NCBI GenBank assembly: GCA_951406725.2 | Contig: OX597840.1 | Coordinates: forward strand, 36,766,001-36,830,000 | Origin: Octopus vulgaris | Taxonomy: Eukaryota | Length of the DNA stretch: 64,000 bases | Direction: 5' to 3' | Position numbers and translations under genes: made by a program | Notes under the pieces: generated by a model | Databases searched by the model: none | Told to the model about the DNA's origin: nothing | Seen by the model: the letters and a program-made list of their open reading frames with translations, nothing else | In this document: one piece after another, positions 15,753-16,089 of the stretch | Numbering within the stretch: position 1 is the first letter of the stretch | Layout: the number at the start of each line of letters is the position of its first letter

Positions 15753-15844
15753 CGGGACAAGAGAGGGCGAGTTGCAGAAGAGAAATAGATTTTATTTACA
15801 TTATTTACATTTGACGGATATTTGTCCAAATCTTGTTTGTTGTT

Positions 15845-15889
15845 AACACAACGTTTCGGTTGATATACCCTCATCCTTCATCAGGTGTC
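15845..15889 (-). ncRNA. Minimal type I hammerhead ribozyme (helix II mismatched)
   Basis: Minus strand: GACAC CTGATGA A GGATG..CAACC GAAAC GTT GTGTT. Confidence 0.65.
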
Positions 15890-15959
15890 TTGGAGAAATT
15901 TCGAGCCTGGGATCTCATACCTTAGGAATGAGAGGAACCCAGGTTCGAAATTTCCCCAA

Positions 15960-16005
15960 GACACCTGATGAAGGCTGGAGAGTATATCAGCCGAAACGTT
16001 GTGTT
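15960..16005 (+). ncRNA. Minimal type I hammerhead ribozyme, canonical core
   Basis: GACAC CTGATGA A GGCTG-10 nt-CAGCC GAAAC GTT GTGTT; helix I GACAC/GTGTT, helix II 5 bp, self-complementary AACGTT at helix III. Confidence 0.85.
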
Positions 16006-16089
16006 AACAACAAACAAGATGAGGACAAATATCCGTCAAATGTAAATAATGTACATAATTCCTCATCTCTTAAATATAGAACAGAGATT

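What the first reader, a model, noticed from the sequence alone, without database searches (positions are those of the whole stretch)
15797..16082. Near spacer-less 255-bp palindrome with a canonical hammerhead in each arm
Both arms keep CUGAUGA and GAAAC-GUU. Helix III reduces to the self-complementary AACGUU, which can form only between two molecules (dimeric hammerhead). The ribozymes point outward from the centre. A read-through transcript from either strand therefore carries a sense ribozyme and its antisense arm, so a long hairpin competes with the ribozyme fold. Inference: a built-in silencer or switch, and a dsRNA substrate.
Basis: partly seen in the sequence, partly recalled or inferred. 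Interest (0 to 1): 0.7.

Follow-up and report, generated by a model that had tools for sequence, protein, structure and literature searches.

The report
Back-to-back Penelope retrotransposon stumps
This DNA palindrome is two short, back-to-back ends of a very common Penelope-type jumping gene, each carrying that element's hammerhead-ribozyme motif (one now damaged), likely made in a single insertion event; the layout is already described for these elements, so it is ordinary and probably not a built-in switch.

Summary
The palindrome is real: arms are 89% alike, with a 3-nt loop. Both arms keep CUGAUGA and GAAACGUU. They are the minimal hammerheads of Penelope-like elements (PLEs), not canonical ones, and the left one has a broken helix II.

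Each arm is the terminal repeat and first codons of an abundant PLE. One 36-mer of it occurs exactly 1,427 times in this genome. In other copies the same sequence follows the end of an RT-endonuclease frame and runs on into its start. Only the right arm has the 31-nt tail, and a 6-nt target duplication flanks the pair.

This is the family rule. 18 of 30 copies, picked without regard to pairing, have a head-to-head partner; exactly one arm is tailed in 18 of 18. Head-to-head PLE palindromes, one-sided tails and opposite-strand minimal hammerheads are in print (PMC3846280, PMC4209133, PMC8557442).

The hairpin would mask the ribozyme if transcribed. But the arms decay independently, and no A-to-G strand bias was found in arm copies, so a selected silencer is unsupported. 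The scan found this family and layout before on other DNA.

The parts
15787..15792 (+). Left copy of the likely target-site duplication (AGATTT)
   Evidence: same 6-mer abuts both ends; a match of 6 or more arises in 22% of shuffled pairings, so weak alone, but the family shows clear duplications
15792..15918 (-). Left arm: inverted, 5'-truncated, untailed copy of the PLE terminal repeat; outer end carries an extra AAATAA not in the parent element
   Evidence: 7.6% from the family majority
15845..15889 (-). Left minimal type I hammerhead motif, damaged (A.A mismatch in helix II, 1-nt loop deletion); predicted cut after 15850
15913..15933 (.). Head-to-head junction on the element's own short interrupted palindrome; arms overlap by 2-6 nt; 3-nt loop
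   Evidence: junction 27-mer is unique in the genome with up to 2 mismatches
15917..16053 (+). Right arm: 5'-truncated PLE terminal repeat, which is also the likely start of the element's reading frame (ATG at 15928, frame open to the end of the insertion)
   Evidence: 1.7% from the family majority
15960..16005 (+). Right minimal type I hammerhead motif: helix I 15960-64/16001-05, core 15965-71, extra A 15972, helix II 15973-77/15988-92, GAAA 15993-96, CG, predicted cut after 16000
   Evidence: matches the description in PMC4209133
16054..16084 (+). 31-nt PLE tail, present on this arm only
   Evidence: continues into the coding region in long copies
16085..16090 (+). Right copy of the likely target-site duplication (AGATTT)

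Best explanation
The palindrome is two 5'-truncated ends of an abundant Penelope-like retrotransposon lying head to head, likely made in one insertion, and each arm holds a hammerhead motif simply because the element's terminal repeat does. Shown: both arms belong to the family, only one has the 31-nt tail, and paired units in the family are flanked by target duplications. Inferred: the element's endonuclease cut both target strands a few bases apart. Its reverse transcriptase then started one copy from each cut, one at the outer start site (tail kept) and one at the inner site (no tail, often with a slipped repeat). Both copies stopped early near the start codon and were joined at a short natural palindrome. 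The hairpin is a by-product that has since decayed by mutation; if read through it would mask the ribozyme, with no sign that this was selected.
For: Family: 237 candidates, the best 40 scored at 94% identity or more; 1,427 exact matches of a 36-mer, control 0. Parent element: in 30 of 30 loci chosen for the end of the reading frame, the upstream head (27) or the arm (23 within 300 nt) follows on the same strand (one is the query's own locus). In 6 of 30 loci chosen for the RT start, the arm's tail lies upstream on the same strand; three were printed and run on into coding sequence. L135 has a 569-aa open frame with RVT_1 at E 2.7e-6. Layout: head-to-head partner within about 1.5 kb in 18 of 30 copies picked by an exact core match, exactly one tail in 18 of 18; in 29 best-BLAST copies 18 paired, 16 with one tail, 2 with none, 0 with two; gap of 15 nt or less in 6 of these 59. 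Duplications of 8 nt or more flank 18 of 31 paired units against 1.6% in shuffled pairings (4 of 35 units skipped by the anchor search). Untailed arms stop at one place and 20 of 31 add AAATAA where the parent reads on into the tail (counted by eye). Literature: PMC3846280, PMC8557442, PMC4209133, PMC11167929.
Against: The RVT_1 score (27.7 bits) is below Pfam's cut-off of 29.6, and Pfam finds no GIY-YIG domain in this family's C-terminus; the endonuclease is assigned by eye from recalled motifs. No intact full-length copy was seen. The window's own duplication is only 6 nt. No raw or long read spans the locus (contigs only). Two-start priming is inferred; fold-back self-priming is the published reading (PMC3846280). 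The left arm is more diverged than the right (7.6% vs 1.7%), which is not explained.
Confidence: 0.9

Rival explanations
1. Same element and same single insertion, but the second arm was made by fold-back: the first copy (or an antisense RNA) primed on itself at the short central palindrome and was copied back.
For: The centre sits on a natural mini-palindrome of the element. PMC3846280 (passages) reads junction palindromes as self-priming.
Against: Untailed arms end at one fixed place, and 20 of 31 carry an added repeat there, which fits a fresh start on RNA better than the end of a fold-back. The anole enzyme cuts and extends both strands and starts at two sites bounding the tail (PMC11167929). 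Other gap-free pairs have different junctions.
Confidence: 0.25
2. The hairpin is a selected silencer or switch that keeps the ribozyme off and feeds editing or small-RNA pathways.
For: The hairpin abolishes both hammerhead stems in silico. Penelope copies yield antisense small RNAs in a rotifer (PMC3846280, passages). One contig of a DNA run labelled as another organism runs from the left flank 29 nt into the left arm (short of the tool's 31-letter rule), a hint that the insertion may be old.
Against: No shared or compensating changes between the arms; left ribozyme damaged; ribozyme core positions are about as conserved as their neighbours across 133 copies; sense-strand A>G 62/4392 vs T>C 41/2619, p = 0.61, in 84 arm copies; no host exon was recognised by eye in the window's open frames.
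Confidence: 0.06
3. The palindrome is an assembly or chimeric-read artefact.
For: No listed contig spans the stretch.
Against: Arms differ at about 11% of columns; only one has the tail; a duplication abuts both ends; the junction is unique; 6 of 59 other copies are similar gap-free pairs with other junctions.
Confidence: 0.02
4. The unit is a separate non-autonomous element (tRNA-headed SINE, retrozyme or MITE-like foldback) that borrows Penelope enzymes.
For: Many short copies begin at a tRNA-like head; the head aligns to this genome's tRNAs (score 62 vs null maximum 47; profile E 3.5e-8 to 6e-5).
Against: The head lies directly behind the stop of the PLE frame and the arm runs on into coding sequence, so both are parts of the coding element's own repeat. 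Junctions differ from copy to copy, so the palindrome is not copied as a unit. No tandem array here.
Confidence: 0.07

Closest known systems
Insertion units of endonuclease-bearing Penelope-like elements, e.g. Pen2a of Adineta vaga (PMC3846280, passages) and the general scheme in PMC8557442 (passages, Fig. 2 legend)
   Same: Inverted 5'-truncated terminal repeat adjacent head to head, slight overlap at the junction, 31-bp tail on one side, target duplication around the whole, repeat includes the first codons of the frame.
   Different: Here both copies are so short that only the repeat is left; this family's full repeat also starts with a tRNA-like head and (AAT)n, which this locus lacks.
Minimal type I hammerheads of metazoan PLEs (PMC4209133, parts 1-2 of 4 read)
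   Same: Extra nucleotide between 9 and 10.1, G10.1-C11.1, short helix I, palindromic 15.2-16.2, no helix III loop; that paper also reports pairs 100-700 bp apart on opposite strands.
   Different: Helix II is 5-6 bp rather than 7-8; the two cores here are about 80 bp apart; activity untested.
Poseidon of Anolis carolinensis, PAc (PMC11167929, parts 1-2 of 4 read)
   Same: Hammerhead overlaps the start of the frame; tail lies just downstream; RT followed by a C-terminal nuclease-like region.
   Different: No sequence comparison or tree was run; clade placement rests on domain order seen by eye.
Animal non-LTR retrozymes (PMC7229834, passages; 10.64898/2026.07.22.740005, part 1 of 5)
   Same: Type I hammerhead in a short repeat related to PLE terminal repeats.
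   Different: Retrozymes are head-to-tail tandem arrays; this is head to head and part of a coding element.

Membership tests
EN+ Penelope-like element insertion | Linked to a single frame with PLE-type reverse transcriptase | tested here: met
   569-aa frame in L135 with RVT_1 E 2.7e-6 (below curated cut-off); arm flanks the frame at both ends in other copies
EN+ Penelope-like element insertion | C-terminal GIY-YIG endonuclease | tested here: inconclusive
   No Pfam hit; motif-like residues seen by eye in translations, motif recalled
EN+ Penelope-like element insertion | Terminal repeat (pLTR) that includes the start of the frame | tested here: met
EN+ Penelope-like element insertion | Adjacent inverted 5'-truncated copy, head to head | tested here: met
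   18 of 30 and 18 of 29 copies
EN+ Penelope-like element insertion | 30-40 bp tail on one end only | tested here: met
   31 nt at 16054-16084; 34 of 36 pairs have exactly one tail, none has two
EN+ Penelope-like element insertion | Target-site duplication around the whole unit | tested here: met
   18 of 31 with 8 nt or more vs 1.6% shuffled; this locus 6 nt
Penelope/Poseidon clade | RT phylogeny and absence of the Neptune-type cysteine linker | not tested
   No tree built; linker not seen by eye in L135
Minimal PLE hammerhead | Conserved core, helices I and II, extra nucleotide after position 9, palindromic 15.2-16.2 | tested here: met
   Right arm meets all; left arm fails helix II
Minimal PLE hammerhead | Self-cleavage as dimer or with protein help | not testable with these tools
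   Needs in vitro assay
Canonical type I hammerhead | Helix III stem-loop and Rfam model match | tested here: not met
   no hammerhead model matched
Non-LTR retrozyme | Head-to-tail tandem repeats each with a hammerhead | tested here: not met
   No tandem array at the locus; no other family copy in the window

The most novel reading that the evidence does not exclude
This family records a strict two-start insertion rule (one tailed arm, one untailed arm with a slipped repeat at a fixed site) that favours priming from both cut strands over fold-back. Its tRNA-headed terminal repeat may let RNA polymerase III transcribe a coding retrotransposon, and each insertion round seeds the genome with hairpins that could feed editing or small-RNA pathways.
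Probability: 0.3. Interest if true: 0.5.

Novelty: new member of a known kind. Interest (0 to 1): 0.15.

Why it matters
The locus itself matters little: it is one decayed insertion among very many. It warns that hammerheads on both arms of a palindrome in animal genomes are usually Penelope insertion scars, not engineered-looking switches. The family as a whole is a handy natural data set for the open question of how Penelope elements make inverted ends.

Tried and rejected
Rfam: no match at gathering score in the window; only generic hairpin models below cut-off at the locus; no tRNA call on the head by ARAGORN in 30 loci or Rfam, although alignment to this genome's tRNAs is clearly above null.

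First search for the parent by Pfam GIY-YIG returned other PLE families; none of the 44 loci examined linked a frame to this arm (L097 holds an arm about 3 kb from the hit). The parent was found by reading upstream of the head. PDB search of the L135 frame: nothing.

Sequencing runs: no RNA holder listed. 8 of 24 runs were laid, all contigs; none of the listed pieces spans the locus, and the two runs guessed to be RNA gave almost no cover outside the repeat, which says nothing on expression. Summed contig depth over the arm is orders of magnitude above the flanks but is not a copy number.

A>G strand test: null in arm copies; excess in the frame's end (132/5937 vs 41/2981, p = 0.006), opposite sign at the RT start (p = 0.045), per-site tests null in all three. 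Not taken as editing. The C>A excess in arm copies most likely reflects the tailed/untailed difference at 16054.

Paper searches: 7 run. The search for Penelope-like + tRNA-derived + polymerase III + SINE gave 0 papers; octopus + hammerhead gave nothing on this family. PMC13282606 (passages) lists Penelope families in an octopus genome without describing inverted ends in the passages seen. Repbase and Dfam could not be searched, and no supplements were read, so the family may already be named there. PMC10886601 (passages) was irrelevant.

Full report
Observation. The window holds an inverted repeat at 15792-16058 whose arms are 89.3% alike over 271 columns. As RNA it folds into one hairpin with a 3-nt loop, -190.2 kcal/mol, z = -30, with 0 of 200 shuffles as stable. 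Hammerhead core boxes lie on + at 15965-16000 and on - at 15884-15850, pointing outward. The right motif has 5-bp helices I and II with pairing probabilities of 0.71-0.99 when folded alone. The left motif has an A.A mismatch in helix II and probabilities below 0.1. Inside the whole palindrome both stems have probability 0.000 on either strand. No Rfam hammerhead model matches.

Kind of ribozyme. Cervera and de la Pena (PMC4209133, parts 1-2 of 4 read) define minimal hammerheads of metazoan PLEs: an extra nucleotide after position 9, short helix I, palindromic 15.2-16.2, predicted to work as dimers, no activity as single motifs and low activity as dimers in vitro. They also report pairs 100-700 bp apart on opposite strands. 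The right arm fits this. By standard hammerhead geometry (recalled), only ACGU of AACGUU would pair in an active dimer. In the anole element the ribozyme needed the element's protein to cleave and was not required for insertion in vitro (PMC11167929, parts 1-2 of 4 read).

Family. The genome (G000, 2.8 Gb) holds many copies: 237 first-look candidates, the best 40 scored at 94% identity or more, and 1,427 exact matches of a 36-mer with 0 for the control. Earlier scan notes call this genome an octopus; I did not test that. Upstream of the arm most copies have (AAT)n and a head that aligns to the genome's tRNAs (score 62 vs null maximum 47). This locus is cut off just downstream of those parts.

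Parent element. Two of the 30 loci showed coding-like sequence ending just before the head. Searching with it gave 4,890 first-look candidates, 150 scored. In 30 of 30 fetched loci the head (27) or the arm (23 within 300 nt) follows on the same strand (one is the query's own locus). L135 has a 569-aa open frame with RVT_1 at E 2.7e-6, below Pfam's cut-off; Pfam does not recognise the C-terminal region, so the endonuclease is assigned by eye. In 6 of 30 loci chosen for the RT start the tail lies upstream on the same strand, and the three printed run on from the arm through the tail into coding sequence. The arm is therefore the PLE terminal repeat and overlaps the likely start of the frame, as in Adineta Pen2a and anole PAc.

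The palindrome is the family's normal product. Of 30 copies taken in order along one chromosome by exact core match, 18 have a head-to-head partner within about 1.5 kb, and all 18 pairs have exactly one tail. Of the 29 best BLAST copies, 18 are paired, 16 with one tail, 2 with none. Gaps run from overlap to 1,340 nt; 6 of the 59 have 15 nt or less, each with its own junction. Duplications of 8 nt or more flank 18 of 31 paired units, against 1.6% in shuffled pairings (4 of 35 skipped). Here the tail is 16054-16084 and AGATTT abuts both ends; a 6-mer alone is weak, since 22% of shuffled pairings reach it. The junction 27-mer is unique in the genome. The same layout is described in PMC3846280 and PMC8557442 (passages).

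Mechanism (inferred). The anole enzyme cuts and extends both target strands and starts reverse transcription at two sites that bound the tail (PMC11167929). That predicts one tailed and one untailed arm inside one duplication, as seen. Untailed arms stop at one place, and 20 of 31 add AAATAA where the parent reads on into the tail (one search counted by eye), which looks like slippage at a fresh start. I favour two starts over fold-back, about 3 to 1; fold-back is the published reading (PMC3846280) and the centre does sit on a natural mini-palindrome.

Function of the hairpin. Among 133 distinct copies the median distance from the majority is 5.1% (132 scored); the right arm is 1.7% and the left 7.6% away, and no difference is shared between the arms. 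Core positions are about as conserved as their neighbours. Sense-strand A>G does not exceed T>C in 84 arm copies (p = 0.61); the two coding samples gave opposite signs. Expression of this locus could not be tested. Nothing points to a maintained switch.

Earlier notes. The scan has reported this family and this layout many times on other DNA. Those notes moved me from a non-autonomous reading to checking for a coding parent, which searches confirmed.

Verdict. Real, ordinary, explained: a new instance of a described kind of PLE insertion. Interest 0.15.

Noticed in passing
L044, L046, L105-L144 (family copies): The coding element's terminal repeat starts with a tRNA-like head directly after the stop codon, then (AAT)n, then the hammerhead arm; best alignment among 30 genomic tRNAs was to a tRNA-Arg. 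Few runs of four T on the sense strand (1 to 3 per 1.4-2.6 kb vs 12-30 runs of four A). Polymerase III transcription untested.
   Followed up: partly
L039, L054, L060, L117, L123, L125, L154: 7 of 120 copies lack 3 nt at the predicted cut site (2 more lack 5 nt); 3-nt losses in two control segments were 0 of 109 and 2 of 127. Could be a cleavage scar, slippage or one subfamily.
   Followed up: partly
window 15792-15797 and untailed arms of 31 pairs: Untailed arms often end with an extra AAATAA or longer repeat of the element's 9-nt unit (20 of 31), as if the enzyme slipped on starting.
   Followed up: partly
L091:2245-4587, L092:2164-4506: A different PLE family with many 781-aa open frames (RVT_1 and GIY-YIG, cysteine linker seen by eye), preceded by a second frame of about 350 aa; apparently young.
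   Followed up: no
L047:1455-1927: Two tailed arms lie tail to tail and both run on into similar flanking sequence, suggesting a later inverted duplication.
   Followed up: no
L011:1287-1641, L028:1359-1728, L043:1455-1790: Head-to-tail pairs of the arm, the arrangement that would allow a dimeric hammerhead.
   Followed up: no
window 19615-21261 (-): LINE-type reverse transcriptase frame interrupted by an assembly gap of N.
   Followed up: no
L009:1857-1945: Unrelated 89-bp near-perfect hairpin (92%).
   Followed up: no
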